Source: an uncultured delta proteobacterium (GTDB lineage: Bacteria > Desulfobacterota > Syntrophobacteria > BM002). From it: DNA of 64,000 nt. Location of the stretch: contig CAVQGX010000012.1 of the NCBI GenBank assembly GCA_963712115.1, forward strand, positions 1 through 64,000. The letters run 5' to 3'. Every line of letters begins with the position of its first letter. The stretch's first letter is position 1. The notes under the pieces are model-generated. The model ran no database searches. It was not told the origin of the DNA and saw nothing but the letters and a program-made list of their open reading frames with translations. Below are positions 5,841 through 20,204 of the stretch, piece after piece. The translations under genes were made by a program, and so were the position numbers.

Positions 5841-8800
5841 ATGAACGGCTCAGTTAGAGCCTTGCTTTTCTCAATTATCGCAACATCTATAGTTCTGCTT
5901 TTCGGGTTAACCTCCGCAGCACAAGAGCTTGAGGTGTGGACCAATCTCGGCCTCTACGGCGGACAAATGTATGACATAGCCATTGACCCTGCCAACCCAG
6001 AGAAGATGTTTGCCGGCGCCTATCTGGGAGACGGTCTCTTCGTAACCACGAACGGTGGAAGTATATGGCAAGCTGTGGTAGCTGCAGAGCAAGTAGAAGG
6101 AGAAGACACCTTCAAAAATCATGCGGTATGGGCCGTGAAGATAGCACCAAGCAATAGCAGTGTGATTTGGGCGTCACATAATTACTGGGTCGAAAAAAGC
6201 GTAGACGGAGGTGAGACCTGGGCCCACATCTGGAACGGCGAGATGCAGTCTCCAAACTATGGCACCTGCTCCAATTGTCCCGAATGGGATCAGTATAGAT
6301 GGTGCCGTTCTTTGGCAGTAGATCCTTCTGATGCCGGAGAGAATACGGTTTTTGTGGGGACGAGCGGTCGCTATTCAAACTGGACACCTTACGGCGCGAT
6401 CTATATGACCGAAGATGGCGGCGATACTTGGAGGAAATTGAAAGGACCGGTGCAAGATGAACCTGGCCCTTGGACGGATCCCGATGATCCAGGGAACTTC
6501 GACTATGATGTAGTTGACCTTGCCCTTGACACAAGTTCTCCCGATGTCATTGTCTTATGGGCGGTTACACAGAATCAGGGCCTTTTTGTGGAAAAGGCTG
6601 GGCCGGAGGATGTAGTTAGTCAAGGTACGCTTTATCGCGGTGAGATCAATAGATCAACCGGGGCTGAGACCTGGATCGAAGTGTTTTCGATGGATGGGGG
6701 GAAGTTCTACGATGTTGAGGTTAAACCAAATGATCCCAACTCGATCTTTACTGCCAACGACTGGGGGATCTTCAGGCATTATTTTGAAGAAGGTGAGTGG
6801 AAGTACCAGCGGATTTTAAATTTAAAAGAAGAGCCACCTCCGCCAGGCGCAGTCTTCGCTCGAAATGTTCAGGCAATGGCCTTTGACCCCAAAAATCCGG
6901 ACATTCTCTACGCAGCCTGGAAAAACTCAATTAGCCAATGGGAAAATGTTGATACTAGTCCAAAGATTGCAAGGGGTACCCCGCCTTATGAGGACGCCGA
7001 CTGGGAGATTCATAGTGTCGACAGCCTCTTTTTGGCCCTTGCCATTCACCCTGTAAGCAGTGAAACGATCTTTGGCGGCGACACAAGCTTGGGCCTATAC
7101 AAAAGCCAAGATCACGGCCAAACCTGGACACCCATTAACAACGGCATTAATGCCATCATTATTCGTGATCTCAGAATCAACCCCAACGATTCGACACATT
7201 TACTGGCAGGGACTGTGTCGGGTGTCTTCGAGAAAAAGGGTGAAGGATCCTGGTCTCGCCTTCTCTCAAAAACAAGCTTGTCAGTGCAGTTCCATCCGAC
7301 GGATAGCAGAATCTTTTACGCCGGTGGAGATGGTTGGCTGGCCAAGACAAAAGACGGCGGAAGCTCTTGGAGCTACACTGAGGATCTTGTATCCAATGTC
7401 TTTGATATTGCTCTAAAACCTACGGATCCGGACATACTGTATTTAGCTCTCAACCATGTGGGGGCGGGAAAGGGACGGATTTTAAAGAGCACGGACGGAG
7501 GAGTTACTTTTAAGAAGGTTTTGGATGGAGTAAACCAGTCAGAGGAGGGACATGATTTCAATGTCATAGTCATCGACCCTAATGATCCGAATCACTTATT
7601 TGCCGGGGGCGGAAATTATTTCGATACCCTTATCAATGGAAACCTTTATGAGAGTAAGGCTGGCGGCGATGAAGGTACGTGGCAACTGACCGGGCTCACC
7701 GATGTAATTGTCAATGACTTGCTGATTGATCCTCGTGACTCAAAGGTTATGTATGCAGGATGTGGATACAGCGGCGGCACAAGTGACCCTGTGTTCAAGA
7801 GCTCTGACGGCGGTCTCACCTGGACTCAATCCTTCGAAGGAATTCTCGGCTTGGTGGATCCTTTGAGAGGTATATGGGGGACTTCCGCAACGAATGTTTT
7901 TGTTGTCGGGCTAACAGCAGTGCAAGCAGTTGCCTCCTCCATCTGGCAATACGATGGAAGCGCCTGGACCAGAATGGACAGTGGCACAGCAGAGGGGCTT
8001 TATGGGGTTTGGGGGAGTACTTCGGACAATTTTTTTGCCGTAGGTAATAACGGCACCATTTTACATTATAACGGTAGCGGTTGGACTACAATGAGCAGCG
8101 ACACTGGAGAACTTCTCTACGATGTCTGGGGGAGTTCTGCGACAGACGTCTTTGCCGTGGGGGCCTCGGGTGCGATCGTTCATTATGACGGTAACACCTG
8201 GTCTGCCATGAGCAGCGGTGCCACAGAGAAGCTGGAAGGTATATGGGGGAATTCTGCCACAGATGTCTTCGCTGTAGGTGATAAGGGTACTATTCTTCAT
8301 TATGAAGGCAACAGCTGGACCAGAATGGACAGTGGCACTACTGAAGACCTTTGGGGGGTGTGGGGGAGTTCTGCCACAGATGTCTTTGCCGTGGGGGCCT
8401 CGGGTGCGATCGTTCATTATGACGGTAACATCTGGTCTGCTATGAGCAGCGGTGCAACAGAGGACCTGGAATATATTTGGGGGAGTTCTGCGACAGATGT
8501 CTTCGCTGTAGGTGCTAAGGGTACTATTCTTCATTATGACGGCAGCAGCTGGACTAGCATGGACAGTGGCATTACTGATTATATTATGAGTGTCTGGGGT
8601 AGTTCGGAGGTGGATGTCTTTGCCGTGAGCGGTTATGGCACAATCCTTCATTACAATGGGAGCGATTGGGCCATCACGAAACTAGGAGGAGCGAACTATA
8701 ATTCGGTGACTGACATGGAATTTCACCGACAGAACAAGGATATCATCTATGCCGGCACCACCGCTCAGGGAGTATATGTTTCACCCAACCAGGCTGGAAA

Positions 8801-10103
8801 ATGGGCGAATCTGGGAAAACCAGAATATAATGTACACGCGATATCGACCTCATCTCTCTACGCCGCGACAGATGCAGGCTTGTTCCAGTGCACGGGTAGC
8901 GGTATCATTGCAGGCAAGGTCGCGAACGCCCTTACTGGCACTGGTATTGATCAAGCGAAAGTATGGAGTGACTTTGGGGTCAAAACCATCAGTGTCATGG
9001 GTGAGTACATGATGTCCCATCCTACAGGCATCTTTGATGTTTTCGCTGATGCAGAGAAGTATTTCGACTCAACAATAAGTGGTGTGACTGTCCTAGGGGG
9101 AGATGTGACATGGACTAACATCCCGATGCAGCCAGTTTTTCGTGTAACGGAAGTCCTTCCACACGACAAAGCCGGCATCGAAGACAATACTCGCGTCTCC
9201 AGTGATAGCTCATTTGCGGTTTTGATCACATCTCCTGACGGAGTGGACATCACAGATCAAAATAGTATCAAGTTCTCTATTGATGATGGTGTAAATGAGC
9301 CATACACGAGAAATTTGGGTCACTCGTCAGTGAGGACCATCAAGGTGAACCCCGATGAGGAAGACACCAAAGTAACCAAGCTCTGGGCGGTTTACGACAG
9401 AGCCAAAGATGCCCCTTATGACAATGAGTACGCATTCGACAGTAAAGTAGATATGCAAGTGGAGGCCACTGATAAAGCAGGCATGCAAACAAGCAAGCGG
9501 GCTAGTTTCAAAACTGAAACACAAGAAGAGCATGATGATGAACTCGCAAGTCTCCCAGATACAGAACCTGTAGATCCTACTGATCCTGCTCTTGTTGGGC
9601 TGCACAATGCAGGTACTCAGGTGAGCAGTGGTGATCTGCAGGGTGCCAAGATTGTCTACAACAGCAGCGAGCCGGTGCTGCCCAGGTTTGGGCCACTGAA
9701 TGAATTACCGGCAATGGACATGGAAGGATCAGAAGCCGTTGGCGTGCCCCTCAATCTACAACCCCACACGGTGTTTGAGACACCAGTAAAGATTTTCATT
9801 CCCTGTCCGGGCTGGTCAGATGTAAGCAGTCTCAACGTCTACGTCTTCAAAGAAGACAACTGGGCATTAGGCTGCGATTCTGACGGCCAGGTATTGTCGG
9901 GCGGTGATGGATGGATGGTGCCCGGCTCACGGGTCAATCATAACAATGGGAGTCCGTCAACAATAGAAATCCAAGTCTATCGCTTCTCGGGTGCTCAGGC
10001 AGCCGGCTCCACATCGGATGTCCGTTCGAATGGTTCAAGTAGCGGTGGAGGAGGATGTTTCATTGACACAGCGGCTTGCGGTCTCGTTTGGCCGAAGAGG
10101 TAG
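5841..10103 (+). CDS. large secreted BNR/Asp-box beta-propeller surface protein with CFI-box-type C-terminus (anchor frameshifted)
   Basis: Signal peptide; many S/T-x-DGG-x-TW Asp boxes; 7 WGxSxxDVFAVG repeats; carboxypeptidase-regulatory-like segment; SSSGGGGCFIDTAAC near end; start chosen from RBS GAGGAGG. Confidence 0.85.
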   Translation: MNGSVRALLFSIIATSIVLLFGLTSAAQELEVWTNLGLYGGQMYDIAIDPANPEKMFAGAYLGDGLFVTTNGGSIWQAVVAAEQVEGEDTFKNHAVWAVKIAPSNSSVIWASHNYWVEKSVDGGETWAHIWNGEMQSPNYGTCSNCPEWDQYRWCRSLAVDPSDAGENTVFVGTSGRYSNWTPYGAIYMTEDGGDTWRKLKGPVQDEPGPWTDPDDPGNFDYDVVDLALDTSSPDVIVLWAVTQNQGLFVEKAGPEDVVSQGTLYRGEINRSTGAETWIEVFSMDGGKFYDVEVKPNDPNSIFTANDWGIFRHYFEEGEWKYQRILNLKEEPPPPGAVFARNVQAMAFDPKNPDILYAAWKNSISQWENVDTSPKIARGTPPYEDADWEIHSVDSLFLALAIHPVSSETIFGGDTSLGLYKSQDHGQTWTPINNGINAIIIRDLRINPNDSTHLLAGTVSGVFEKKGEGSWSRLLSKTSLSVQFHPTDSRIFYAGGDGWLAKTKDGGSSWSYTEDLVSNVFDIALKPTDPDILYLALNHVGAGKGRILKSTDGGVTFKKVLDGVNQSEEGHDFNVIVIDPNDPNHLFAGGGNYFDTLINGNLYESKAGGDEGTWQLTGLTDVIVNDLLIDPRDSKVMYAGCGYSGGTSDPVFKSSDGGLTWTQSFEGILGLVDPLRGIWGTSATNVFVVGLTAVQAVASSIWQYDGSAWTRMDSGTAEGLYGVWGSTSDNFFAVGNNGTILHYNGSGWTTMSSDTGELLYDVWGSSATDVFAVGASGAIVHYDGNTWSAMSSGATEKLEGIWGNSATDVFAVGDKGTILHYEGNSWTRMDSGTTEDLWGVWGSSATDVFAVGASGAIVHYDGNIWSAMSSGATEDLEYIWGSSATDVFAVGAKGTILHYDGSSWTSMDSGITDYIMSVWGSSEVDVFAVSGYGTILHYNGSDWAITKLGGANYNSVTDMEFHRQNKDIIYAGTTAQGVYVSPNQAGKWANLGKPEYNVHAISTSSLYAATDAGLFQCTGSGIIAGKVANALTGTGIDQAKVWSDFGVKTISVMGEYMMSHPTGIFDVFADAEKYFDSTISGVTVLGGDVTWTNIPMQPVFRVTEVLPHDKAGIEDNTRVSSDSSFAVLITSPDGVDITDQNSIKFSIDDGVNEPYTRNLGHSSVRTIKVNPDEEDTKVTKLWAVYDRAKDAPYDNEYAFDSKVDMQVEATDKAGMQTSKRASFKTETQEEHDDELASLPDTEPVDPTDPALVGLHNAGTQVSSGDLQGAKIVYNSSEPVLPRFGPLNELPAMDMEGSEAVGVPLNLQPHTVFETPVKIFIPCPGWSDVSSLNVYVFKEDNWALGCDSDGQVLSGGDGWMVPGSRVNHNNGSPSTIEIQVYRFSGAQAAGSTSDVRSNGSSSGGGGCFIDTAACGLVWPKR
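7863..8680 (+). repeat. seven ~39-aa intragenic tandem repeats
   Basis: xxGVWGSSATDVFAVGxxGxIxHYDGxxWxxMxSG repeated 7 times; units 3-4 and 5-6 near-identical in DNA (234-bp period). Confidence 0.9.
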
Positions 10104-10378
10104 AGCTCCTGAGCACGTTAAGGGACGATTATCTGCTCTCCTTCACCTTCGGCCAACATATAAACTCATTTTATTACAGAAATGGAGAACCCATCGCTGG
10201 ATACATTGAGGTTCATCCTTGGTTAAAGCGACCATTAGGGATTGCACTTTATCCGGCAGTTGATGTGGTATGTCTGATTGTCTTGACGGGTATCATTACC
10301 AAGGTGTTCTTTTTTGTGCTTGCCATGACAAGCTGTCTAATTGCAGCTCTAAAAACTACAGCGAAAAGGGAACACTAA
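10076..10378 (+). pseudogene. out-of-frame C-terminal CFI-box/membrane-anchor part of the upstream surface protein
   Basis: SRLAEEVELLSTLRDDYLL...GQHINSFYY...PIAGYI...WLK...ALYP plus TM helix and basic tail is the usual continuation after GCFIxTAA. Confidence 0.8.
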
Positions 10379-10394
10379 AGAGCCAGGGTGAAGA

Positions 10395-11738
10395 ATGGTT
10401 GCGAGACATAAAATCTTCATCTTATCCGGTCTGCTTTTTCTATTCGTTTTTTCAACCAATCAGCTCAAAGCACAAACGCTCTTCCAGCAGGTAGGGATTG
10501 CCTCATCGCCCAATCCTGGAGGTTCGGGAGCAAGAGCGGTGGGCATGGGAGGTGCCTTTATTGGGGTGGCAGACGACGCCACCGCAGCCTCTTGGAATCC
10601 AGCCGGGCTCATCCAACTAGAAAGACCAGAGATGTCTGTAGTGGGTGAGTATTTCTACCGAAAAGAGGAGTTTTCCTCTGACGACCGTCCAGAGATAAAA
10701 AACACTGGCACGGTTGATGGCTCTGACCTCAACTACCTAAGTGCCACGTATCCCTTCCATTTCTACAAAAATATCGTGGTGTCCATGAACTACCAAAAAC
10801 TTTACGACTTCAAGCGTGATTTTAGTCACCGCCTTGATTTTTCCTCAGTTGGCTTGGATCTTGTACAAAAAAGGAGCTTTGATCAGGATGGTTACCTAGG
10901 CGCTTTTGGAATAGCATGCGCAGTTGAGATCACACCTAAACTCTCTTTTGGTGTAACTTTTAATATTTGGCCGGGTGATTTGATATGGGACAATGGCTGG
11001 GACGAAAAATTCACGGAACGCGGCGTTGGGACTCTGGCAGGAAATCCTGTAACAATTGACACCAAAGTTACCGATAAATACTCTGATTTCACTGGATTCA
11101 ATGCAAACATCGGCCTGCTGTGGGATATAAGCAAACACTTTACCTTCGGAGCCGTTGTAAAGACACCTTTTACCGCAAAGGCTGACCACACATTCAACTT
11201 CATACAAGTTCAGACCTTTGGCCCACCTCTTAACACGACGATCACAAGCCAGCAGAAAGTTACGGAAAACGTAGATATCGACATACCGCTCTCTTACGGT
11301 TTCGGACTTGCCTACAGAGCTTCAGATACACTTACCTTCGATTTAGATGTTTATAGAACCGACTGGAGCGACTTCACTATAACTGACAGTCAGGGTAACA
11401 AATTCAGTCCTATCGACGGACGCCCGGCCAGTAAGTCCCACGTGGAGGCTACAACCCAGGTCCGGCTTGGCGGAGAATATCTTTTTATTTTGGAAGCAAA
11501 AGAGATTGTCGTGCCCGTTAGGGCTGGAGTCTTTTACGATCCAGAGCCAGCAGAGGACGGTGTGAAAGACTTCTTCGGTTTTTCCGTAGGATCAGGCATA
11601 GTGTACAAGTGGTTCATTTTTGATGTGGCATACCAGTTCAGATGGGGAAACGATGTAGATACAGGGAACTTGATTGCCACCTCCGAGGCTGATGTTTATC
11701 AGCACAAAATCCTTGCTTCAGTAATCACCCATTTTTAG
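10395..11738 (+). CDS. FadL/OmpP1/PorV-like outer-membrane beta-barrel
   Basis: Signal peptide; GARAVGMGGAFIGVADDATAASWNPAGL; amphipathic strands; C-terminal Phe. Confidence 0.85.
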   Translation: MVARHKIFILSGLLFLFVFSTNQLKAQTLFQQVGIASSPNPGGSGARAVGMGGAFIGVADDATAASWNPAGLIQLERPEMSVVGEYFYRKEEFSSDDRPEIKNTGTVDGSDLNYLSATYPFHFYKNIVVSMNYQKLYDFKRDFSHRLDFSSVGLDLVQKRSFDQDGYLGAFGIACAVEITPKLSFGVTFNIWPGDLIWDNGWDEKFTERGVGTLAGNPVTIDTKVTDKYSDFTGFNANIGLLWDISKHFTFGAVVKTPFTAKADHTFNFIQVQTFGPPLNTTITSQQKVTENVDIDIPLSYGFGLAYRASDTLTFDLDVYRTDWSDFTITDSQGNKFSPIDGRPASKSHVEATTQVRLGGEYLFILEAKEIVVPVRAGVFYDPEPAEDGVKDFFGFSVGSGIVYKWFIFDVAYQFRWGNDVDTGNLIATSEADVYQHKILASVITHF

Positions 11739-11756
11739 GTTTGCGATAATGCCCTC

Positions 11757-13781
11757 ATGAAAAAAGCGACGCATGCAATCACGTACTTAATCACCATTGG
11801 ACTGGTGCTAGCGGTTTGGAGTTGTGTCCAGAAACCTTCAGGACCCGTTTATGCAAAAAATGGTAAGGAATATGGCAAGACCCAGGCGGCTTTCTTCAGG
11901 CACCGGTGGTGGAACTACTACGAGCGGGGGATTTCTTATGCAGAAGGGGAGTTTTATCAGGAGGCTCTTTCAGACTTCAAAGAAGCTTTAGGGCAGCGAG
12001 AGGAAGATCAGCGCATGGCCCGCACCTACGGGATGCACTTTATTGATTACTTTCCCCACAGAGAGTTAGGCATCATCCATTATCACATGGGAAATTTCCA
12101 GGAAGCCGGAAAAGAATTGGAGATTTCTCTAAGTCAATACCCTTCCGCCAAGGCTCGCTATTATTTGGACCGCGTTCGTAAAGCCTTGATCGAAGAAGTT
12201 GTCCAAGAAGTGTCTCCCCCAAGGCTTACTCTGAGTTTTAGAGCTGAAGAGATCTGGACACGAGAACACCCTGTGCGAGTCTCTGGCGTTGCGGAAGACG
12301 AAAATTATGTGGCTGCAATTACTATCCGTGGGACACCCCTCTTTCTTGAGGGATCAGAGAAACGCATCCCTTTCGATAAGCCTCTGGCTCTTTCCCAAGG
12401 CCGGCATGTTATTGATGTGGAGGCAAAGAACCTTCTCGGCAAAACGGCTCAGCGGAGCGTGATCATCAATGTTGATCGAGAAGGCCCCATCACTACTTTG
12501 GACGAACTGCAAGTTGATGACGCTGCCACACCTAGGGAGGTTAGAGTTTCCGGCTCGATTTACGATGAAGCCGGTGTATCTGAATTGATTATCAACGGCC
12601 AAAACATCTCTATTAAGAAAGGCGCGGAAGTTCTCTTTACCGCTAAACTCTCTCTAGACACAGCCAGTCTAGAAATTGTAACGGTCGACACTCTAGGTAA
12701 CCAAACCTCTGCGCAAATTCCACTATCTGCCGGTTTGCTCAGCGAGACGCCCGTGCTGGTGGCATGGGTGGATACCAACGTTGGGCCTTCTTTCGAATCA
12801 GCCGGTCTTTTTGGCGCCAAGGACACCAACCCTCCCAGAATTCGGCTCAAGGGTTGGTCTGACAGCCAGACCGTTTTCCTGGAAAAGGTATATATCGAAG
12901 GCCAGGTAAGCGACGAGAGCAAAATTGAGAGTCTCACCATCAATGGCATTCCCATCCTGCGTCGCCAGAGTCTTTACATTTTCTTTAGTCACCTGGCTGA
13001 GCTTAGCGAAGGAGAAAACACTCTAACTGTAGAAGCCATCGATGAGGAGGGCAATAGTTCGAGGAAAACCATCGCCATCGTGCGTAGGATCCCTAAAGCC
13101 CTTCAGTTAGGTGAAAGGTTGAGCCTTACAGCATTTCCGTTTGAGCAGAAGGGAGAGGTTACAGAAGCAAGTCTTGCTTTTCAAGACAACCTTATTGATG
13201 CCCTGGTAAATCAGAACCGCTTTCAGGTAATCGAAAGGGACAAATTGAATTTGGTCCTTCGGGAACAAAAACTGAGCCGGACCAAGTTGTTTGACAAAGG
13301 GACGGCTTTGAAGCTGGGAGGTCTAGTGGCCGCCAAGTCAATCATCATGGGCAGTATTATCGAGAGCCGTATCGGCATTGAAGTTGTGGCCCGAATGATC
13401 GATACGGAAACATCAGAGATTTTGGCTGCTCAGGACGTCTACGATGAACTGAAAGATCTTCCTGCTTTAAGGTCTCTGGCCGAAGGAATGGCCATAAAGT
13501 TCCATCGAGACTTCCCATTGGTGGACGGCTTTATTCTCGAGTGCAAGGGCGAGGACATATTCACCGATCTCGGTGAGGATGTGATTAAGTTGCGTCGGAG
13601 GCTCATAGTCTACCGCGAAGAACCGATAAAACACCCGATCAGTGGTAAGGTGCTCGGCGCAGATAACATAATCATGGGACATGCCCGCGTAAATCAAGTT
13701 ATGCTCAACATGTCTAAAGCGAAACTGACGGATGTCAAGACTGAGAAAGTCAAATCGTTTGATAGGGTTATCACCGAATGA
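11757..13781 (+). CDS. lipoprotein with TPR, Ig-like repeats and CsgG/FlgO-like domain
   Basis: Lipobox VWS-C; TPR helices; repeated PPR/GP...V-S-G-x-DE Ig units; FQVIERDKLNLVLREQKL...ALKLGGLVAA CsgG-like motif. Confidence 0.8.
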   Translation: MKKATHAITYLITIGLVLAVWSCVQKPSGPVYAKNGKEYGKTQAAFFRHRWWNYYERGISYAEGEFYQEALSDFKEALGQREEDQRMARTYGMHFIDYFPHRELGIIHYHMGNFQEAGKELEISLSQYPSAKARYYLDRVRKALIEEVVQEVSPPRLTLSFRAEEIWTREHPVRVSGVAEDENYVAAITIRGTPLFLEGSEKRIPFDKPLALSQGRHVIDVEAKNLLGKTAQRSVIINVDREGPITTLDELQVDDAATPREVRVSGSIYDEAGVSELIINGQNISIKKGAEVLFTAKLSLDTASLEIVTVDTLGNQTSAQIPLSAGLLSETPVLVAWVDTNVGPSFESAGLFGAKDTNPPRIRLKGWSDSQTVFLEKVYIEGQVSDESKIESLTINGIPILRRQSLYIFFSHLAELSEGENTLTVEAIDEEGNSSRKTIAIVRRIPKALQLGERLSLTAFPFEQKGEVTEASLAFQDNLIDALVNQNRFQVIERDKLNLVLREQKLSRTKLFDKGTALKLGGLVAAKSIIMGSIIESRIGIEVVARMIDTETSEILAAQDVYDELKDLPALRSLAEGMAIKFHRDFPLVDGFILECKGEDIFTDLGEDVIKLRRRLIVYREEPIKHPISGKVLGADNIIMGHARVNQVMLNMSKAKLTDVKTEKVKSFDRVITE

Positions 13782-14395
13782 AGCGTTCTTTGAAGAGGGA
13801 CCGAAAGCTCCTGTCGAGTTGTTTATCAGGAAATAGAAAAGCAGCAGAAACCCTGGTTCGCCGATTTTCAGATCTGGTCTACTGGTCTGTCCAGCATGCC
13901 CTGATAGTCAAAAACGTTTCTTTCAATAGATACGATCTGGAAGATCTTCACAATACAGTTTTTCTAAGGCTCTTTGAAAAGAAATGCAAGAAACTCAGGC
14001 AATATCGCGGGAAAAACGGCTGCAGTCTAGCCTCGTGGATCAGGATGATTGCGGTCCGAACTGTGCTTGATCATCTCCGAAAAAAGGGCATAGATGCAAT
14101 TGCCTTCCAGAAAGACCGTATACCTCTTGATAAGTTGCCCGAACTTAAGGCTGAAGGGGTCGATTTCGTAAACCTCAAGGAGCAAGTGGAATGTGAACGG
14201 TTACTTCAGCTTGGCATGAGAAGACTACCACCGCGCGATCGACTGTTTTTGAGACTCCATTTTGATCAGGGGCTTTCCATTGCAGAAGTTGCCAATGCCA
14301 TGCAGATTACTGTAGAAAATGCCTATACCATCAAACACCGGGCAATTCAGAGACTGAAATTTCATGTGGCTTCCTCTCAGGGTATTAACCGCTAG
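13778..14395 (+). CDS. ECF sigma-70 factor
   Basis: Region 2 (EDLHNTVFLRL...LASWIRMIA) and region 4 (GLSIAEVANAM...KHRAIQRL); ATGA overlap with upstream gene. Confidence 0.9.
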   Translation: MKRSLKRDRKLLSSCLSGNRKAAETLVRRFSDLVYWSVQHALIVKNVSFNRYDLEDLHNTVFLRLFEKKCKKLRQYRGKNGCSLASWIRMIAVRTVLDHLRKKGIDAIAFQKDRIPLDKLPELKAEGVDFVNLKEQVECERLLQLGMRRLPPRDRLFLRLHFDQGLSIAEVANAMQITVENAYTIKHRAIQRLKFHVASSQGINR

Positions 14396-14622
14396 CGTAA
14401 GATGAATTTAATTCCTCTTATTTGAACTATTACTATCAGTTTTACTCTCGTTACAGCTATTGTCGAAGCAGTGATTTTTCTGTGACTTTTTCTGATCTAT
14501 TCTGAGCGATGATAAGATACTAACTGGATGTCTAATACTCTTAAGTCGTTGTTGTCTTAACTGATTTTGTTACACAACATTTATGGGTTTCTCAATATGG
14601 TTCAGGCTTGTCGAAGTTCGGT

Positions 14623-14649
14623 GCAAGGTTTTCCAGATTTTTTCGTCTA
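14623..14649 (+). promoter_or_regulatory. possible ECF-type promoter ahead of the anti-sigma/CHAT genes
   Basis: GCAAGG-N15-CGTCTA, with a T-rich spacer and ECF-like -10. Confidence 0.35.
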
Positions 14650-14706
14650 TGTGTATAGGAAGGAAAAACTTTTTGAACCAGTCCCTGCAGCAATGGACGT
14701 AATGAG

Positions 14707-15384
14707 ATGGAGCTCACGATGACGACGACATGCCCTGTAGAAGAAAAGCTTGCTGACTATCATGAAGGTCATCTCGCGGAGGAAGACCGGTTGGAGATGG
14801 AAGAACACCTGTCGGACTGTCCAGTGTGTTTGGACGCACTTGTGGTGACGAGCACTCTGGTTCGAGGCGAAGACAAGTTAGAGCTGGAGTCGGTGCCAGT
14901 AAGGGTTACAGAATCAGCTATAGATCTGATAACCAAACGCTATCTCTTTTCACATTATTCTTGGATAGAAAAACTCAAGCAATCAGTCGAAGCCTTGGGT
15001 TCGAAGATATCGGATTCATTGGGGTTGACGCCATGGCGAAGATGGGATTATGGGACGGTCCGAAGTTCCGAGCGGGTCACACTGATAGATAATCTGGTTT
15101 CTTTGAAAGTGCCATTCAAAGACATTGAAACTGAAATTGAGATGGAAAAAACAGGACCCGGCATGGCCACTATTCGTGTCAAGCTGTCCCAAGCTCGCAA
15201 ATCCATGAAAGCTGTGAGAGTTACCCTAAAAACGGACAAACGAGAGATTGCCTCATATCTCTTGGATGATAACTCTGTAATATTTGAAGCCATACCTTTC
15301 GGTCACTACGGTATTTCTTTGGCCGAAAACGGTGTGGGGCTTGGAACATACCATTTTAAGATCAAGGAAACTCATAATGGCTGA
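14707..15384 (+). CDS. zinc-finger (zf-HC2/ZAS) anti-sigma factor, soluble
   Basis: CP...HLSDCPVC (HxxxCxxC); no TM helix; beta-rich C-terminal domain; follows ECF sigma. Confidence 0.85.
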   Translation: MELTMTTTCPVEEKLADYHEGHLAEEDRLEMEEHLSDCPVCLDALVVTSTLVRGEDKLELESVPVRVTESAIDLITKRYLFSHYSWIEKLKQSVEALGSKISDSLGLTPWRRWDYGTVRSSERVTLIDNLVSLKVPFKDIETEIEMEKTGPGMATIRVKLSQARKSMKAVRVTLKTDKREIASYLLDDNSVIFEAIPFGHYGISLAENGVGLGTYHFKIKETHNG

Positions 15385-18300
15385 AGACAAGACAAGAAGA
15401 GCAGAACCCACGTCAAGCAATATCGAAGAAATCTTGCGGCAGCGTGAACGTCTCGATCAGATACTTCGAGAAAAGTACAAAAAAGAGGTGACCATCCTCT
15501 TCACCGATATATGCGGATTTACCGAGTATATAGATAGCAGGGGGGATATTAATGGGCGAGCTTTGCTCATGAAGCACAACAGTATTGTCTTGCCCATAAT
15601 CGAAAATCACGAAGGCAGAGTTATTGAGATCGTTGGAGATGCAGTTATGGCGGCTTTTGCAGCTCCCTTACCTGCGGTCAAGGCATCTATAGCTATTCAG
15701 AAAGCTCTGGCTGAGTATAACCTTAACACGAAAGAGATAGACAGTATTCGAGTCAAGATCGGAATCAACCTTGGTGAGGCTCTGGTGGACGAGGCTGCAG
15801 TCTATCAGGGCTTTAGTGGGGACGTGGCCAATGTGGCCTCACGCGTACAAGCTCAAGCCAGGCCGAATCAGATTCTTATTTCCAAAAATGTCTATCACCA
15901 GGTTAGTGACTGTGAGGATATTCTCTGCAGATTTCACGGAGAAGTGCAGGTAAAGGGGAAAGCGTTATCCCTCAAAATCTACAGGGTAGTCTGGCGGGAC
16001 GAGGATGCTTTTGTGAGCATGGAACCGCAGGTTCAACTCTGTGAGCATCCCGCAGAGAAAAGAGCCAGAAAACCTGTGCGGCTTTTCCAGCTTGATATAA
16101 ACAGGGAGAGGGACCGCCTGAAGATCAGTGCTCGCGAATACACCACGGGTGAAGAGGACACCATTCGTCACTACGAGGACATACGGGTTTCCATGGAATG
16201 GATTAAGACCCGGTGCCATGAGATGGTGGAAACGTTAAACAAAGTCAATCGTAGAGGCCGCATTGATCGTGAGGTCCTAATAAAACTCAAAGAAGTCGGC
16301 CAGGTCCTGTACGATGAATTGTTCCCGCTGAGCGTAAAAGAGAAATTAAGAAAAACCACCATTAAATACCTCAGCCTTACCATTGATGATCAATTGGTCC
16401 ACATTCCATGGGAACTTTTAAATGATGGCCAACAGTTTCTTTGCCAGCGTTTCAATATGGGCCGACTCGTCAAGACTCGTCAAACTATTTCAGTCACAAA
16501 GCCGCGACCATTAGCCCGGCCCCTAAGGATGCTGATTTTGGCTGATCCAGAGGGTAATTTGAAGGGTGCCTACGCCGAAGGTATTCAGATCAGGGACTTT
16601 ATGGATCGGGATGAAGATCTGATCAATGTTTCCTTGCGCTCCGGGAATATTACCCTCGATTCCATTAAAGAAAAAATAAGGAATTTTGATTTTGTTCACT
16701 TTGCCGGTCATGCAGAATACGATTCCCACAATCCGGCAGAAAGTGGATGGCGGCTAACCGAAGGCAGCCTCCGAGCCCGAGACATTAGAAAAATGTCAGG
16801 TACAGGAAACATGCCTGCCCTCATCTTTGCCAATGCTTGCCAGTCAGCGCGAACCGAAGAATGGACGCTAAGAGATCAATTCCAGGATAAGATTTTTGGA
16901 CTTGCAAATGGTTTTCTTCTCGCGGGAGTAAGACACTATGTGGGCACCTTCTGGGAGGTATTGGATGAACCAAGCAGTCGTTTCGCTCTGGAGTTTTACA
17001 GAAATCTCTTGTCTGATAGAGATATCGGTGAAGCCATAAGGTTGGCACGGTTGGAGCTGATCAAAAAATACGGTGAGGAGAACATAGTCTGGGCGAGCTA
17101 CATACTTTATGGAGATCCCACTTTTAATTACATTGATCAAGCCGAGGGGGCAGAAGTACGGGTAGAGTCTGAGCATGCCTATGAAACGCTCGAAAGCCCG
17201 GAAGTCAGGGCTCGTGAAGAGGTCATTGACTTTGCTGACCGGGGGATCCGGAAAAAAAGACGGATTTTGTGGGCCCTGGTTGCCGGAATTATTGCTGCTC
17301 TGGGAATAGCGCTCTGGGGCTACCCGCTCCTTTCAAACAAGCAGATCGCCCGTTATGAAAAGAGGGCTCTAGCCCACTACCAGAACGGGAACTTCGAGGA
17401 GGCTTTGGATGCCTGTGGCAAGCTTGAAGCAAAAAGCCCTGATGCTTGTTTGACCTATCTTATCCAGGGAAACATCCATTTTAGAAAAGGAAACCTGGAC
17501 AAAGCTGAAGCTGCCTATCGCAATGCCCTACAAGCCACTAAGGGGACTAATCTGCAGAAAGCGGAAGCACTGGTGGGTTTGGGCCGCATTGCCTCTCTTA
17601 GAAAACAACCCTTAGAGGGCCTTAGTTATTATCAACAGGCTACCGAATTAGCCCCGCAGAGCAGGACGGGATACTTGTCTCAGGCTCTCATGCTTGAGGA
17701 TAGAGGCAATTACGGCGAAGCTCTGGATCTTCTCAAAAAAGCTCAGGAGCTTACTCCAGATGACCGGGCGCTTGCGGCTCTAATTAATGACGTCCAAAAG
17801 AAGGTGGCTTTTGCCCAAGACAAGGAAAAGCAGGAACGTATAGATCAAATGGTCAAAGAACTTTTGGATTCAATGAAATCACCTTCCTGGGCTTTACCGT
17901 GGGACGGCTGGACATCACTTCCTTTGACTATGTGGGTTATGGATTTTCAGGCGCGGGGGTATTCTTTGCGCGAAGCGGAAGACCGTCTCCTTGTCTCCGG
18001 CATTGTAGATCATTTGCTCGGGTACGACCGGCTTCAGGTGGTCGAGCGTGAACTCCTGGATAGATTGCTCAAGGAATTGGAGTTGGGAAGTTCCAAACTG
18101 ATTGATCGCAACACTGCGCTGGCCGTCGGAAAGCTCGTCGCTGCGAGGCTAATACTCTCAGGCCAATTAGTCTATTCCGAACCGCTAACTCAGATCTCCA
18201 TGCGCTTGATAGAAACAGAAACTGGCCGTATTACCGCAGCAGTGAACGAATCCTTTGGGAGCGCTGTCCCCCCATCAGATCTGGCGGACGCGCTCTCAGA

Positions 18301-18541: not shown

Positions 18542-18642
18542 GATTTTCTATAATGGATATGACAGCATTTTTTCGGACTCAATTTAAAATCACTAATACT
18601 TATAGCAAATAACGACTACTCAAGAACCTGGCAAAGAATGAC

Positions 18643-19812
18643 ATGGAATTTATATCAGCAAAAAATGCTTCTAGAACTGAACTGACGGATCTAAATGTAT
18701 CTATTTTAGAACAGGCGCAGTTATTGATGAATTTATCGGAAATGATAACTGAGCGCAACGTGAAAAATCAATGTGAAATAATAGCAAACTGGTTTAAGCA
18801 ATTATATCGGCTGAAAGAAATTGCCTTCTTGATCCAGGACATAAGATTAGATCGCACGCTTTTTTATGGCGAGGCTTCTCTTGAAAATGCGCTTCGACAC
18901 ATGCTGAAAACCTCGTCAGAGCGCTCTCCGGCAAGAAAAGTAGGAAATGGGTCGACGGTTCATGGTTGTAAAGAATGTAATTTGATTACAGTGGATGATA
19001 CGAGACGCTTTGGGTCCCCAGAGCTCAGGATTCTTGCCGCTCCCTTGACCGCTGGGGAACACCACATTGGAGGTATGGCACTGGTTGCAGAAGAAGAAAA
19101 AATCCAGGCTTTACTAAGTGAAAGCCCCACCTCATGCTGGTTTGGTCCCTTTATATCCAACTTGTTGGATAATGCGATCTGCCACGAAAAAAAAGATCGA
19201 AAAATACGCATGCTCAACTTTTACCAAACAGTTAGCTCATCACTAACACACGTGGAAGACTTGCATGAGCTGTTGACCACGATCATGATCATTGTTACCA
19301 CGGAACTCTCATGTGAAGAAGGCTCCGTTCTGCTGTACGATGAGGAGACCAATGAATTCGAATTCTTCATTGCCGTTGGCGAGACGGGTGATGAGCTTAC
19401 AACGCTGCGCTTTCCGGCTGATAAAGGAATAGCAGGGAGGGCCCTAAGAGAAAGGAAGACATTTATAGTTAATGATGTGCAGAGTTCCCCGGACTTTTAC
19501 GGTTCAATCGATGAGCAACACGACTTCAAAACCACGTCACTTCTTGCAGCCCCTCTTGCATCAGGCAACGAGGTTGTTGGGGTCATTGAAGCCGTAAACA
19601 AAATAGGCGATAGGGGTTTTACCAAAGAAGATGAACAGATCCTTTCGGCAATCGCGGATGAGGTTGCTCTTGCAGTTAAGAATGCGAGGCTCTTCGACTA
19701 CGTCGTTGATAGCTACTGCAAGCTAAGACAAGGCCAAAATAGCTGTAAGGGCTGCCAAAGACCCCTCAAATCGTGGACGCCATGTGCATTACAAATCGGA
19801 AAGCTTCACTAG
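18643..19812 (+). CDS. GAF-domain protein with Cys-rich C-terminal tail, no output domain
   Basis: GIAGRAL...VNDV...AVNKIGDRGFTKEDE (NKFDE motif); degenerate N-terminal GAF; ends YCKLRQGQNSCKGCQRPLKSWTPC. Confidence 0.85.
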   Translation: MEFISAKNASRTELTDLNVSILEQAQLLMNLSEMITERNVKNQCEIIANWFKQLYRLKEIAFLIQDIRLDRTLFYGEASLENALRHMLKTSSERSPARKVGNGSTVHGCKECNLITVDDTRRFGSPELRILAAPLTAGEHHIGGMALVAEEEKIQALLSESPTSCWFGPFISNLLDNAICHEKKDRKIRMLNFYQTVSSSLTHVEDLHELLTTIMIIVTTELSCEEGSVLLYDEETNEFEFFIAVGETGDELTTLRFPADKGIAGRALRERKTFIVNDVQSSPDFYGSIDEQHDFKTTSLLAAPLASGNEVVGVIEAVNKIGDRGFTKEDEQILSAIADEVALAVKNARLFDYVVDSYCKLRQGQNSCKGCQRPLKSWTPCALQIGKLH

Positions 19813-19904
19813 AAATGTCTCCGTAACAAAGACTCACTTGATCCTGTTCGACGAACAACGCAGACGACGATGTTGGTCGTGAATAGGGCAAGGAGGTAAT
19901 TCAC

Positions 19905-20204
19905 ATGCGAAAAACAGAAAAGATCTTTGGGAAAGACTTAGAATACGTCCGGAAGTACTGCCTTGCCGGTTCATTTCCCGCTAGCGATGACCGCTGTCCT
20001 TATTCAAAGGCAAAAGTCAGGGCTGCTTTAGCCAGAAGCCCCAAAGGTGAATGTGATTTTGAAGAAGTTGATACGATGTTTCTGTGTCGATACCCCGATG
20101 AGAAAATGCCATTACATGAAGCGCTCTTAGTCTCAGAGCTGAACAGATATCCCAATAAAGAGAGAAGAGAAATGATTGATGCGTTTTATAGGGGAGAAGT
20201 CTAA
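19905..20204 (+). CDS. hypothetical protein (99 aa, 4 Cys)
   Basis: Strong RBS AAGGAGG; intact ORF. Confidence 0.7.
   Translation: MRKTEKIFGKDLEYVRKYCLAGSFPASDDRCPYSKAKVRAALARSPKGECDFEEVDTMFLCRYPDEKMPLHEALLVSELNRYPNKERREMIDAFYRGEV

What the first reader, a model, noticed from the sequence alone, without database searches (positions are those of the whole stretch)
5841..20204. Candidate trans-envelope signalling system: OM barrel + TPR-CsgG lipoprotein + cyclase-CHAT protease receptor + ECF sigma/soluble ZAS anti-sigma + GAF sensor + surface propeller protein
Seen: eight co-oriented genes with tight coupling (lipoprotein/sigma ATGA overlap; anti-sigma/CHAT 8-nt overlap). The fusion protein has a single TM placing cyclase and an intact CHAT dyad (FAGH, NACQS) inside and TPR-CsgG outside, mirroring the TPR...CsgG architecture of the lipoprotein. 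The anti-sigma has no TM, so it cannot sense the periplasm itself. Established: CHAT proteases are caspase/separase-related; in type III-E CRISPR the TPR-CHAT Csx29 cleaves Csx30, which binds a sigma factor. Inference: a CRISPR-independent analogue, in which an envelope signal relayed via barrel and lipoprotein oligomerises the receptor, activates CHAT, cleaves the anti-sigma and releases the ECF sigma, with a parallel cNMP output to the GAF protein. I know of no functional description of this combination.
Basis: partly seen in the sequence, partly recalled or inferred. Interest (0 to 1): 0.88.

Follow-up and report, generated by a model that had tools for sequence, protein, structure and literature searches.

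The report
Membrane caspase-like receptor controlling a sigma factor
A conserved gene set of sulfate-reducing bacteria pairs a membrane receptor carrying a caspase-like protease with a soluble inhibitor of a sigma factor, which suggests an undescribed way of passing an envelope signal to gene expression.

Summary
In detail: all eight co-oriented genes, both overlaps, every named domain, the single TM helix and the His/Cys dyad are there.

Five genes form a conserved core: FadL-like barrel, TPR/LpoB-like lipoprotein, ECF sigma, soluble zinc anti-sigma and a CHAT receptor. They recur in about 25 loci of Desulfobacterota, in two different gene orders.

In 22 of 24 informative loci found through the anti-sigma, the CHAT gene lies directly downstream. 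A complex prediction docks the anti-sigma's C-terminal beta domain on an edge strand of CHAT (ipSAE 0.75, best control 0.01).

One arginine (P-[V/I]-R-[G/S]) in the disordered linker is kept in 241 of 243 relatives. It is a candidate cleavage site.

A promoter, GTAAGA-N15-CGTCTA, precedes the anti-sigma/CHAT operon in 15 loci, including window 14623-14649.

No locus lacks both outputs: 17 have cyclase and sigma, 5 have sigma only, 5 have cyclase only.

GAF and orf99 are not conserved. "CsgG" is only a partial domain match. Cleavage is untested.

Closest known are type III-E craspase and DdvA. I rate this a new variant of a known kind.

The parts
5841..10103 (+). Secreted beta-propeller protein (Sortilin/BNR N-terminal part, six 117-nt coding repeats at 8010-8686). 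It is a semi-conserved accessory of the module.
   Evidence: Pfam; signal-peptide-like hydrophobic N-terminus; repeats; orthologues (44-56% identity) in L031, L035, L040, L042, L043, L058, and related repeats in L033 and L066
10076..10378 (+). Out-of-frame remainder of the propeller's CFI-box-CTERM sorting domain. The frameshift lies within about 10076-10103.
   Evidence: NCBIfam NF041770, 41.3 bits (cut-off 40), model positions 9-68 of 69. The CFI box itself ends the 1430-aa frame.
10395..11738 (+). FadL/TodX-superfamily outer-membrane barrel with a signal peptide
   Evidence: PF03349, 59.4 bits. BamG, PorV and FadL equivalogs are all below their cut-offs. Co-conserved in most loci.
11757..13781 (+). 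Lipoprotein: TPR, Ig-like domains, LpoB/CsgG/FlgO-like alpha/beta domain and a C-terminal beta domain. Its C-terminal half is homologous to the receptor ectodomain.
   Evidence: Pfam; hydrophobic N-terminus ending in ...WSC; 34% identity to receptor residues 876-1004; co-conserved
13778..14395 (+). ECF (group IV) sigma factor. Its start overlaps the lipoprotein stop (ATGA).
   Evidence: Sigma70_r2 + r4; TIGR02937, 71.6 bits; overlap read
14623..14649 (+). Conserved ECF-type promoter candidate (GCAAGG-N15-CGTCTA here; family consensus GTAAGA-N15-CGTCTA), 58 nt upstream of the anti-sigma start
   Evidence: The same element lies between sigma and anti-sigma (or before the anti-sigma operon) in 15 loci. 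It is the only credible copy in the own genome.
14707..15384 (+). Soluble zinc (ZAS, C9/H34/C38/C41) anti-sigma: helical N-domain, disordered linker and an Ig-like C-terminal docking domain
   Evidence: zf-HC2; no TM segment; AF2 model; family alignments
15061..15063 (+). Codon of Arg119 in the motif P-[V/I]-R-[G/S]. It is the candidate scissile or pseudo-substrate residue at the end of the disordered linker.
   Evidence: R in 241 of 243 family members while positions 110-116 vary; invariant in A1; pLDDT below 50 for residues 54-121
15070..15366 (+). Anti-sigma C-terminal beta-sandwich (residues 122-220), the predicted CHAT-docking domain
   Evidence: pLDDT about 90; interface residues 168-187, 194-197, 208-209; R171 and S183 each kept in 241 of 243; occurs alone, without ZAS domain or sigma, next to CHAT in L040 and L042
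15377..18541 (+). Receptor: class III cyclase (33-196), separase/craspase-type CHAT (about 240-585), TM helix (628-653), periplasmic TPR (660-800), LpoB/CsgG-like domain (870-955) and a beta domain
16625..16648 (+). CHAT edge strand (residues 417-424), predicted to pair with anti-sigma strand 179-185. The neighbouring helix carries Y399, R406, D407 and D410.
   Evidence: D410 is kept in 23 of 23 anti-sigma-associated CHATs and is N, K or T in the 3 homologues without an anti-sigma.
16709..16840 (+). Stretch from the catalytic His445 codon (16709-16711) to the catalytic Cys488 codon (16838-16840)
   Evidence: Invariant in A2 (14 of 14) and A3 (23 of 23)
18643..19812 (+). GAF-domain protein. It is co-oriented but not part of the conserved module.
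   Evidence: GAF_2, 72.6 bits; no homologue in any of the 31 other loci compared
19905..20204 (+). orf99, with no family match and not conserved. There is no evidence that it belongs to the module.
   Evidence: no families; no hits

Best explanation
This is a conserved trans-envelope signalling module with five core genes.

Shown by comparison:
- The five genes are an outer-membrane FadL-like barrel, an outer-membrane lipoprotein, an ECF sigma, a soluble zinc anti-sigma and an inner-membrane receptor.
- The receptor's periplasmic TPR/LpoB-like part is homologous to the lipoprotein.
- Its cytoplasmic part carries a class III cyclase and a separase/craspase-type CHAT protease.

Predicted:
- The anti-sigma holds the sigma with its N-terminal zinc domain.
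- Its C-terminal Ig-like domain docks by strand pairing on the edge strand of the CHAT domain. This tethers the sigma/anti-sigma pair to the receptor.

Inferred:
- A change in the envelope, sensed by the receptor ectodomain together with the lipoprotein and barrel, alters the receptor's oligomeric state. This switches on the dimer-dependent cyclase and the CHAT protease.
- CHAT then cuts the anti-sigma in its disordered linker, most likely after the near-invariant Arg119 (P-[V/I]-R | G/S).
- The freed N-terminal fragment is degraded and the sigma is released.

Shown as a conserved motif, function inferred:
- The sigma transcribes from GTAAGA-N15-CGTCTA promoters. These sit before the anti-sigma/CHAT operon and, in several genomes, before barrel-lipoprotein-sigma, which gives feedback.

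cNMP synthesis is a second, separable output. Its reader is not a fixed gene of the module.
For: Co-conservation:
- The anti-sigma-based scan gave 15 loci. 13 have a CHAT orthologue directly downstream, one (L035) has only its first ~20 codons, and one contig ends.
- In a 401-genome phylum sample, 12 genomes carry the anti-sigma. All 12 also carry the CHAT orthologue: it is adjacent in 10, at a contig start in G297, and unlinked in G409, where it lies with lipoprotein and barrel.
- Six distant loci (anti-sigma 28-33% identical) keep all five genes in another order, sigma-anti-CHAT-barrel-lipoprotein, or lipoprotein-barrel in L066.
- In L063 the ectodomain is swapped to DUF4384 and the partner gene is a DUF4384 protein. 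The anti-sigma/CHAT pair is kept.
- In L040 and L042, sigma and the zinc domain are lost, but a 133-aa protein consisting of Arg motif plus beta domain stays next to CHAT.

Docking:
- Complex prediction gave ipSAE 0.75 (median of 3 runs) with best control 0.01. That mark was reached by 58 of 80 solved complexes and 2 of 110 mismatched pairs.
- Runs agree in at least 92% of contacts. Partner pLDDT is at least 57. My own alignments were used.
- Interface residues are the family's most conserved: R171 and S183 (241 of 243 each), L174, R179 and E180.
- CHAT D410, paired with R171, is kept in 23 of 23 anti-sigma-associated CHATs but is N, K or T in the 3 without.

Protease and cleavage site:
- His445 and Cys488 are invariant.
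- The fold matches separase (E 8e-11), Csx29 (1e-10) and DdvA (1e-7).
- Arg119 is kept in 241 of 243 relatives within a variable linker of pLDDT below 50.

Promoter. The motif is absent from the sigma-less loci L040 and L042.

Outputs: 17 loci have cyclase plus sigma, 5 have sigma only, 5 have cyclase only and 0 have neither.
Against: - No experiment exists and no RNA data were found. Binding and cleavage are predictions.
- The confident interface is an exosite. No confident contact places Arg119 in the active site.
- Arg119 lies only about 4 residues before the first strand of the beta domain, so it could be structural.
- CHAT-lipoprotein-barrel sets exist without any sigma or anti-sigma (L026, L029; also L028, CHAT alone). 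Beta-domain-only partners exist without a sigma (L040, L042). The CHAT protease must therefore have a role that does not need a sigma.
- In this genome the only credible sigma-type promoter precedes anti-sigma/CHAT. None was found before the propeller or barrel.
- The own-genome pattern count is barely above control, 7 against 4.
- The ZAS motif is equally compatible with redox control.
- Loci are related to each other, and the two sets were ascertained through the anti-sigma or the CHAT gene. The counts are not independent trials.
Confidence: 0.6

Rival explanations
1. Tethering or partner switch without cleavage. The anti-sigma docks on the CHAT domain and a conformational change of the receptor releases or captures it. 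The beta domain (with its Arg motif) would act as a securin-like pseudo-substrate or regulatory subunit of the protease. The protease's real substrates lie elsewhere.
For: - The confident predicted interface is an exosite on the edge strand, not the catalytic cleft.
- Beta-domain-only proteins that keep the Arg motif sit next to CHAT where there is no sigma (L040, L042).
- CHAT-lipoprotein-barrel sets occur without an anti-sigma.
Against: - The catalytic dyad is invariant in all anti-sigma-associated orthologues.
- A near-invariant Arg in a disordered linker is what a clan CD protease site would look like. Separase, the closest fold match, cuts after Arg according to a passage of PMC11506125.
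- Both known CHAT/sigma systems are read as proteolytic (PMC10028731, PMC11506125).
Confidence: 0.17
2. The anti-sigma is an RsrA-like redox (zinc/thiol) switch. The CHAT receptor, barrel and lipoprotein would simply be the regulon of the sigma, for example an envelope-repair or cell-fate effector set. In that case adjacency reflects co-transcription, not signalling.
For: - The C-x24-H-x3-C-x2-C zinc ligands are kept in 223 to 240 of 243 relatives.
- The conserved promoter drives the anti-sigma/CHAT operon and often the barrel operon.
- The protein is soluble.
Against: - This does not explain the conserved extra C-terminal domain, its predicted docking on CHAT, or the correlated D410/R171 conservation.
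- It does not explain why the beta domain stays with CHAT when the zinc domain and the sigma are lost.
- It does not explain the complementarity of cyclase and sigma outputs.
Confidence: 0.08
3. An anti-phage or conflict system. The receptor would sense phage attack at the envelope and trigger a caspase-like protease and a cyclic-nucleotide signal, as in craspase, DdvA-controlled CBASS/CRISPR or Pycsar. The sigma would switch on defence genes.
For: - Both characterised CHAT/ECF systems serve defence (PMC10028731, PMC11506125).
- There are weak PADLOC hits of the cyclase to PycC (best E 1.6e-10) and of CHAT to BovA.
- The distribution is patchy: 0 of 17 congeners, 2 of 122 in the class.
- An integrase, a DUF932 gene and an IS4 transposase lie just upstream.
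Against: - No defence effector, cas gene or CRISPR-like array lies in the cluster or window.
- The detectable promoter targets are the module's own genes.
- In one family (six genera) the module sits at a fixed chromosomal place after the same upstream gene, which looks like housekeeping signalling.
- The PycC hits are what any class III cyclase would give.
Confidence: 0.1

Closest known systems
Type III-E CRISPR craspase: Cas7-11/gRAMP with TPR-CHAT Csx29, Csx30 and the ECF sigma CASP-sigma (PMC10028731; passages read)
   Same: A separase-type CHAT protease acts on a soluble inhibitor of an ECF sigma, and the sigma autoregulates its locus. The window's CHAT model matches Csx29 chains at Foldseek E 1e-10.
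   Different: - There is no Cas7-11, crRNA or CRISPR array.
- Activation would come from a membrane receptor, not from target RNA.
- The TPR lies on the far side of a TM helix and C-terminal to CHAT.
- The inhibitor is a classical ZAS anti-sigma with an Ig-like docking domain. No sequence relation to Csx30 was tested.
- The protease is fused to a nucleotide cyclase.
DdvA/DdvS of Myxococcus xanthus (PMC11506125; abstract and passages read)
   Same: A CHCC zinc anti-sigma domain, an ECF sigma and a TPR-CHAT module work in one signalling unit across the inner membrane. The window's CHAT model matches DdvA at Foldseek E 1e-7.
   Different: - DdvA is one polypeptide with CHAT in the periplasm. Its active site is described as incomplete, and it is proposed to cut itself before RseP acts.
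- Here anti-sigma and CHAT are separate proteins. CHAT is cytoplasmic with an invariant dyad, the anti-sigma has no TM segment, and no site-2 protease step is needed.
[quoted passage not shown]
Cell-surface signalling and regulated proteolysis of anti-sigmas (FecA-FecR-FecI; DegS/RseP-RseA-RpoE), named from my own knowledge and from passages of PMC10028731
   Same: An outer-membrane protein, an inner-membrane transducer and an ECF sigma are linked. Sigma is released by proteolysis of the anti-sigma, and the sensing components are autoregulated.
   Different: - There is no TonB-dependent transducer, no FecR-like or RseA-like TM anti-sigma, and no PDZ or site-2 protease.
- The protease is caspase-like and is part of the receptor.
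- The anti-sigma is soluble.
ECF54 genomic context (PMC8999054; one passage read)
   Same: Regulation of an ECF sigma by neighbouring proteases, including CHAT-domain proteins, was proposed from gene neighbourhoods.
   Different: That proposal is for sigmas without an anti-sigma. I did not test whether the window's sigma belongs to ECF54. The supplements of the ECF classification (PMC7826278) could not be seen and may list this neighbourhood.
RsrA-SigR type soluble ZAS anti-sigmas (recalled)
   Same: A soluble anti-sigma with a C...H-x3-C-x2-C zinc site.
   Different: The family here has an added disordered linker with an invariant Arg and a conserved docking domain, and it is tied to a CHAT receptor.

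Membership tests
CHAT / clan CD separase-craspase type protease (PF12770) | Profile match above the curated cut-off | tested here: met
   135.1 bits against cut-off 24, residues 306-580; 138.9 bits in the genome search
CHAT / clan CD separase-craspase type protease (PF12770) | Catalytic His-Cys dyad | tested here: met
   H445 and C488 are invariant in 14 of 14 and 23 of 23 orthologues
CHAT / clan CD separase-craspase type protease (PF12770) | Caspase-hemoglobinase fold like separase and Csx29 | tested here: met
   AF2 model with pLDDT 73 and pTM 0.77. Foldseek: separase 8.3e-11, Csx29 9.9e-11, DdvA 9.7e-8; 36 hits at E <= 0.001, all separase, Csx29/TPR-CHAT or DdvA chains or three axonemal-complex chains.
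CHAT / clan CD separase-craspase type protease (PF12770) | Peptidase activity | not testable with these tools
   Needs an enzyme assay
Type III-E craspase system | Cas7-11/gRAMP effector and CRISPR array in the locus | tested here: not met
   No array-like direct repeats in the 64-kb window. No Cas model hit among the 8 cluster proteins in PADLOC. Only these 8 proteins were scanned.
Type III-E craspase system | N-terminal TPR fused directly to CHAT in a soluble protein | tested here: not met
   The TPR is C-terminal to CHAT and beyond a TM helix
DdvA-type transmembrane anti-sigma | Zinc anti-sigma domain, TM helix and periplasmic TPR-CHAT in one polypeptide | tested here: not met
   They are two separate genes. 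The anti-sigma has no hydrophobic segment, and CHAT is on the cyclase side of the TM helix. No fused form was found among longer proteins, which is weak evidence.
ECF (group IV) sigma factor | Sigma-2 and sigma-4 regions only, about 200 aa | tested here: met
   Sigma70_r2 and r4; TIGR02937, 71.6 bits against 42.9; 205 aa
ECF (group IV) sigma factor | Assignment to a numbered ECF group (for example ECF54) | not tested
   No ECF-group profiles are on hand. NCBIfam subfamily and equivalog models all score below their cut-offs.
Class I / ZAS anti-sigma factor | zf-HC2 profile and H-x3-C-x2-C with an upstream Cys | tested here: met
   23.7 bits against cut-off 22.2. H34, C38 and C41 are kept in 239-240 of 243, and C9 in 223 of 243.
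Class I / ZAS anti-sigma factor | Binds and inhibits its sigma | not tested
   Only adjacency in all sigma-bearing loci and one natural sigma/anti-sigma fusion ORF in L035, which may be an assembly artefact
Class III nucleotidyl cyclase (PF00211) | Profile match and metal-binding Asp pair plus Asn/Arg of the catalytic core | tested here: met
   71.7 bits against 21.9. The best solved relatives are mycobacterial cyclases. D44, D88, N152 and R156 are present and conserved in cyclase-bearing orthologues. The roles of these positions are recalled, not tested.
Class III nucleotidyl cyclase (PF00211) | Lys/Asp pair that specifies ATP | tested here: not met
   The window has E84 where L033, L034 and L036 have Lys, and a 4-residue insertion with Ala where those three have Asp. 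The product nucleotide is therefore open. Assignment of the positions is recalled.
CsgG curli secretion channel | Full-length CsgG profile including the barrel-forming part | tested here: not met
   Matches cover profile positions 37-99 (lipoprotein) and 45-99 (receptor) of 210. LpoB and FlgO score similarly.
FadL/TodX outer-membrane transporters (PF03349) | Profile match over most of the barrel | tested here: met
   59.4 bits against 29.7, profile positions 22-348 of 421
BamG / PorV / FadL equivalogs (NCBIfam) | Score above the equivalog cut-off | tested here: not met
   BamG 80.9 against 250; PorV family 50.7 against 90; FadL 22 against 585

The most novel reading that the evidence does not exclude
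A fourth route from the envelope to an ECF sigma: an inner-membrane receptor whose cytoplasmic caspase-like (CHAT) domain is itself the site-1 protease. The receptor recruits a soluble zinc anti-sigma through a dedicated Ig-like docking domain and cuts it after an invariant Arg when its periplasmic TPR/LpoB-like domain, coupled to a homologous outer-membrane lipoprotein and a FadL-like barrel, reports an envelope change. The same receptor emits a cyclic nucleotide. Sigma and cyclase would be interchangeable output modules of one sensor family. It would be a CRISPR-independent relative of the craspase logic, and it is widespread in sulfate reducers, including partners of methane- and alkane-oxidising archaea.
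Probability: 0.4. Interest if true: 0.85.

Novelty: new variant of a known kind. Interest (0 to 1): 0.75.

Why it matters
Bacterial caspase-like CHAT proteases have only two worked examples of what they do to gene expression, craspase and DdvA, and both are in antiviral defence. This module would show the same protease logic wired to a trans-envelope receptor, with no CRISPR and no intramembrane protease.

It would give a function to a family of at least 162 clusters at 50% identity with E <= 1e-30 (702 at E <= 1e-10). The sources that name any of them call them only 'hypothetical protein' or 'zf-HC2 domain-containing protein'.

The predictions are sharp and cheap to test: a docking interface (D410-R171, strand 417-424 with strand 179-185), a candidate cleavage site (Arg119) and a promoter motif.

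It also offers a natural case of modular outputs (sigma release or cNMP) on one sensor. The barrel/lipoprotein/receptor trio may be a new kind of envelope sensor in Desulfobacterota. One cultured carrier, Desulfonema magnum 4be13, is available for genetics.

Tried and rejected
- Fused forms: a search for anti-sigma relatives among longer proteins (395-2000 aa) gave none at E <= 0.001 among 1246 candidates. The tool itself calls this weak evidence.
- Fold of the anti-sigma: Foldseek against PDB gave no hit at E <= 0.001, only generic Ig/FN3 sandwiches. The docking domain has no informative solved relative.
- Sequence search of the receptor against PDB found only TPR and cyclase chains, no CHAT chain. 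The CHAT relation needed the fold search.
- PADLOC: no hits for 7 of the 8 proteins. The weak PycC, BovA and TPR hits of the receptor are read as shared-domain hits.
- Expression: the look-up of sequencing runs listed no RNA holder, and no run held half or more of the words (best share 0.11). Read laying was therefore not used. No evidence either way.
- Promoter before propeller or barrel in this window: not found with the strict pattern, with 3 mismatches, or with loosened regular expressions.
- No shared promoter was seen by eye upstream of sigma in the six distant loci.
- The idea that L067/L068 (anti-sigma-like genes without a neighbouring CHAT) contradict the link was rejected. Both genomes hold a 45-47% identical CHAT orthologue elsewhere. 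G409's lies with lipoprotein and barrel and keeps Y399, R406, D407 and D410. G297's begins 65 nt from a contig start, while one of its anti-sigma contigs ends 139 nt after the gene.
- G018's apparently truncated CHAT and lipoprotein genes are due to withheld (N) stretches, not to real truncation.
- BamG identity of the barrel was rejected: 80.9 bits against cut-off 250. For the BamG papers I saw only the search listing.
- Literature: four searches found no description of this gene combination. The terms were CHAT domain + ECF sigma + anti-sigma; extracytoplasmic function + classification + CHAT + genetic neighborhood; CHAT domain + adenylate cyclase + bacteria; and caspase-like + anti-sigma factor + cleavage + Desulfobacter. 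The library lacks most subscription journals and supplements were closed. The ECF-group tables of PMC7826278 may list this neighbourhood.

Full report
**1. What is in the window**

The region 5841-20204 holds eight co-oriented ORFs exactly as described.
- The lipoprotein stop and the sigma start share ATGA at 13778-13781.
- The anti-sigma stop and the receptor start overlap by 8 nt at 15377-15384, with an AAGGAA ribosome-binding motif just upstream.
- Hydropathy gives signal-type N-termini for propeller, barrel and lipoprotein. It finds no hydrophobic segment in sigma, anti-sigma, GAF or orf99, and one TM helix (628-653) in the receptor. Cyclase and CHAT therefore lie on the cytoplasmic side, and TPR with the LpoB-like domain on the periplasmic side.
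- The C-terminal half of the lipoprotein and the receptor ectodomain are homologous: 34% identity over 130 residues, E 2e-15.

Two corrections apply.
- The 'CsgG' hits cover only profile positions 37-99 of 210 and are matched equally by LpoB and FlgO. This is a small periplasmic alpha/beta domain, not a CsgG channel.
- The 100-aa ORF 10076-10378 is the out-of-frame rest of a CFI-box-CTERM sorting domain whose first residues end the propeller frame.

**2. Is the set conserved?**

The own genus lacks it: 0 of 17 congeners have the anti-sigma or a full-length receptor orthologue. In the class, 2 of 122 genomes have the anti-sigma. In an even sample of the phylum, 12 of 401 have it.

The anti-sigma nevertheless belongs to a sizeable family.
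- It has 108 clusters at 90% identity in the word-indexed search.
- A profile of 28 members finds 162 representatives at E <= 1e-30 and 702 at E <= 1e-10 among 1.84 billion.
- Sources name them only 'hypothetical' or 'zf-HC2 domain-containing'.

A pattern scan of species-representative genomes with the family alignment returned 15 loci. They come from Desulfobacterales MAGs, Desulfobacula, Desulfotignum, the complete genome of Desulfonema magnum, and MAGs labelled SeepSRB2 and EthSRB1.
- tblastn with the window's proteins shows barrel-lipoprotein-sigma-anti-sigma-receptor in the same order, at 43-75% identity.
- A receptor gene starts at or within about 70 nt of the anti-sigma stop in 13 of the 15.
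- L038 ends 106 nt after the anti-sigma.
- L035 keeps only the first ~20 codons of the receptor before unrelated sequence.

The phylum sample added 12 further loci.
- L058 and L059 resemble the window.
- Six loci of another family (anti-sigma only 28-33% identical) keep all five genes but in the order sigma, anti-sigma, receptor, then barrel and lipoprotein (lipoprotein before barrel in L066).
- Retention of the whole set through a rearrangement is the strongest comparative evidence that the five genes work together.
- GAF and orf99 have no counterpart in any of the 31 other loci.
- The propeller orthologue is found in about 8 loci. Two others carry different giant propeller proteins with a Peptidase_C13 domain.

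**3. Informative variants**

- (a) L040 and L042 have no sigma and no zinc domain. A 133-aa protein made of the Arg motif plus the C-terminal beta domain still sits between lipoprotein and receptor. These loci also lack the promoter motif.
- (b) L063 keeps sigma, anti-sigma and a 49% identical CHAT domain. Its ectodomain is DUF4384, and the gene before the anti-sigma encodes a DUF4384 protein. The rule 'receptor ectodomain mirrors a partner protein' survives a domain swap.
- (c) The cyclase is missing from the receptor in L027, L037, L041, L043 and L063, all of which have the anti-sigma. The sigma/anti-sigma pair is missing in L026, L028, L029, L040 and L042, all of which have the cyclase. 17 loci have both and none has neither. 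Cyclase and sigma thus behave as two separable outputs of one sensor.
- (d) L067 and L068 are anti-sigma-like genes without a neighbouring CHAT, but both genomes have the orthologous CHAT elsewhere.
  - In G409 it lies with lipoprotein and barrel and keeps the docking residues.
  - In G297 it starts 65 nt from a contig start.
- (e) Receptor homologues at 31-39% identity in G047 and G036 come with lipoprotein and barrel but without any anti-sigma.

**4. The anti-sigma and its contact with CHAT**

The AF2 model has mean pLDDT 67.5. It shows zinc-domain helices (12-52), a stretch of pLDDT below 50 (54-121), and a confident beta sandwich (122-220, pLDDT about 90). The sandwich has no informative solved relative.

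In 243 family members the best-kept positions fall into three groups:
- the zinc ligands, H34, C38 and C41 (239-240 of 243);
- Arg119 (241 of 243) in P-[V/I]-R-[G/S], at the end of an otherwise variable linker;
- R171, L174, R179, E180 and S183 in the beta domain.

- ipSAE was 0.73, 0.75 and 0.75 in three runs; the best of three controls was 0.01.
- That mark was reached by 58 of 80 solved complexes and 2 of 110 mismatched pairs. The counts hold only roughly, because my own alignments were used.
- Runs agree in at least 92% of contacts. Partner pLDDT is at least 57.
- The confident interface pairs CHAT strand 417-424 with anti-sigma strand 179-185, and CHAT D410 with anti-sigma R171.
- No like complex is known to me, so a pass from memory seems unlikely. 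It remains a model, not a measurement.

Independent of the model, D410 is kept in 23 of 23 anti-sigma-associated CHAT domains and is N, K or T in the three homologues that lack an anti-sigma. The three are also the most distant, so this is suggestive only.

**5. The protease**

- H445 and C488 are invariant.
- The domain model (pLDDT 73, pTM 0.77) finds separase (8e-11), Csx29 of craspase (1e-10) and DdvA (1e-7).
- Sequence search alone found no solved CHAT.
- An invariant acidic residue, D390, ends the first strand. In clan CD enzymes that position helps to set P1 preference, and an acidic residue there would suit a basic P1. This point is recalled and not tested.

**6. The promoter**

The element proposed at 14623-14649 is real as a conserved motif. 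G[TC]AAG[AG]-N15-[CT][GA]TCTA lies between sigma and anti-sigma in 11 of 13 sigma-bearing loci scanned, the window included. It also lies before the anti-sigma or its operon in L059, L063, L064 and L067.
- It occurs once in the window against 0.06 expected.
- A second copy precedes the barrel gene in L031, L033, L034 and L036, and the lipoprotein gene in L038.
- In the own genome the pattern has 7 hits against 4 for the reversed control. Only 14623 has the T-rich spacer and a fitting place.
- In this genome the visible regulon is therefore the anti-sigma/receptor operon itself.

**7. The cyclase**

The catalytic Asp pair and the Asn/Arg are present.
- The position that is Lys in ATP-specific enzymes is Glu in the window's subgroup and Lys in L033, L034 and L036.
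- The subgroup also has a 4-residue insertion where the partner Asp would be (the roles of these positions are recalled).
- The product is therefore open.
- A PilZ/cNMP-binding/Ser-Thr kinase follows the receptor in L030 and L031, and a GAF protein follows it here. Readers of a cyclic nucleotide thus appear next to the receptor in 3 loci, but as different, non-orthologous genes.

**8. Setting**

- Upstream lie an integrase, a DUF932 gene and an IS4 transposase. Downstream lie an M23 peptidase and housekeeping genes (BipA, Tex).
- With the patchy distribution, this fits acquisition by transfer in this lineage.
- In the distant family, most of the upstream flanks printed (five of the six loci, as I read them) share a coding 3' end before sigma, which suggests a stable chromosomal place. 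I did not identify that gene.

**9. Reading**

The best-supported explanation is a trans-envelope module in which the receptor's CHAT domain recruits the anti-sigma by its docking domain and, on activation, inactivates it, most likely by cutting after Arg119. This releases an autoregulating ECF sigma, with cNMP as a second output.
- Shown: anatomy, co-conservation, motif conservation, fold.
- Predicted: docking.
- Inferred: cleavage, its site, the input through lipoprotein and barrel, and activation by oligomerisation.

The main rival keeps the docking but drops cleavage of the anti-sigma. The sigma-less variants show that CHAT has some sigma-independent role.

**10. Comparison and novelty**

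The logic matches craspase (PMC10028731) and DdvA (PMC11506125), and CHAT-linked control was proposed for ECF54 (PMC8999054). The system fails the defining features of each:
- no Cas7-11 or CRISPR array;
- no fusion of anti-sigma and CHAT;
- CHAT is cytoplasmic.

Four literature searches found no description of this combination. I rate it a new variant of a known kind, with sharp testable predictions.

Noticed in passing
window 10040-10378: The propeller gene's C-terminal CFI-box-CTERM sorting domain is split between two reading frames. The CFI box ends the 1430-aa frame, and model positions 9-68 continue in ORF 10076-10378. This is either a real frameshift or an assembly error.
   Followed up: partly
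window 8010-8686: Six tandem 117-nt coding repeats (61-100% identity to the reference copy) encode the WG...DVFAVG...G.ILHY.G..W blades of the propeller protein.
   Followed up: no
window 87-5408: A phage-type integrase (87-1229, - strand), a DUF932 gene (1382-2311, - strand) and an IS4 transposase (4245-5408) lie directly upstream of the cluster. The window starts at base 1 of its contig. Together with absence from 17 congeners, this suggests horizontal acquisition.
   Followed up: partly
window 30420-30514: Two exact 44-nt direct copies lie 51 nt apart, downstream of the Tex-like gene. Unexplained.
   Followed up: no
L035 7258-8560: One 421-aa ORF joins the sigma to the anti-sigma, which lacks its first ~13 residues. 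Only the first ~20 codons of the receptor gene follow. This is either a decayed locus or a faulty MAG assembly.
   Followed up: partly
L063 6239-17962: A variant locus reads sigma, a 171-aa ORF, a DUF4384 protein, anti-sigma and a CHAT-DUF4384 receptor, followed by two large TPR-CHAT paralogues. Two promoter copies lie at 6809 and 7220.
   Followed up: partly
L031 8745-13212 and L030 4583-6154: A PilZ + cNMP-binding + Ser/Thr kinase protein lies directly after the cyclase-CHAT receptor. In L031 it is followed by a QueC/Asn-synthase-like gene and a YcaO-TPR gene.
   Followed up: no
L036 117-5594 and L039 15916-20664: Giant secreted propeller proteins of other types (LVIVD or NHL repeats), each with a Peptidase_C13 (legumain-like) domain, flank the module where this window has the BNR/Sortilin propeller.
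   Followed up: no
L060-L066, 260 nt upstream of the sigma gene: Most of the distant loci share a conserved coding 3' end just upstream of sigma, so the module sits at a fixed chromosomal place in that family. The gene was not identified.
   Followed up: no
window 15377-15964 (receptor residues 1-196): The cyclase has Glu where ATP-specific class III cyclases have Lys, plus a 4-residue insertion at the partner position. Orthologues in L033, L034 and L036 have the Lys/Asp form. There are weak PADLOC hits to Pycsar cyclases.
   Followed up: partly
protein P0214 (3350 aa): A giant protein has 21 stretches matching profile positions 151-199 of the anti-sigma's beta domain. The docking-domain fold therefore also occurs as a repeat unit elsewhere.
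   Followed up: no
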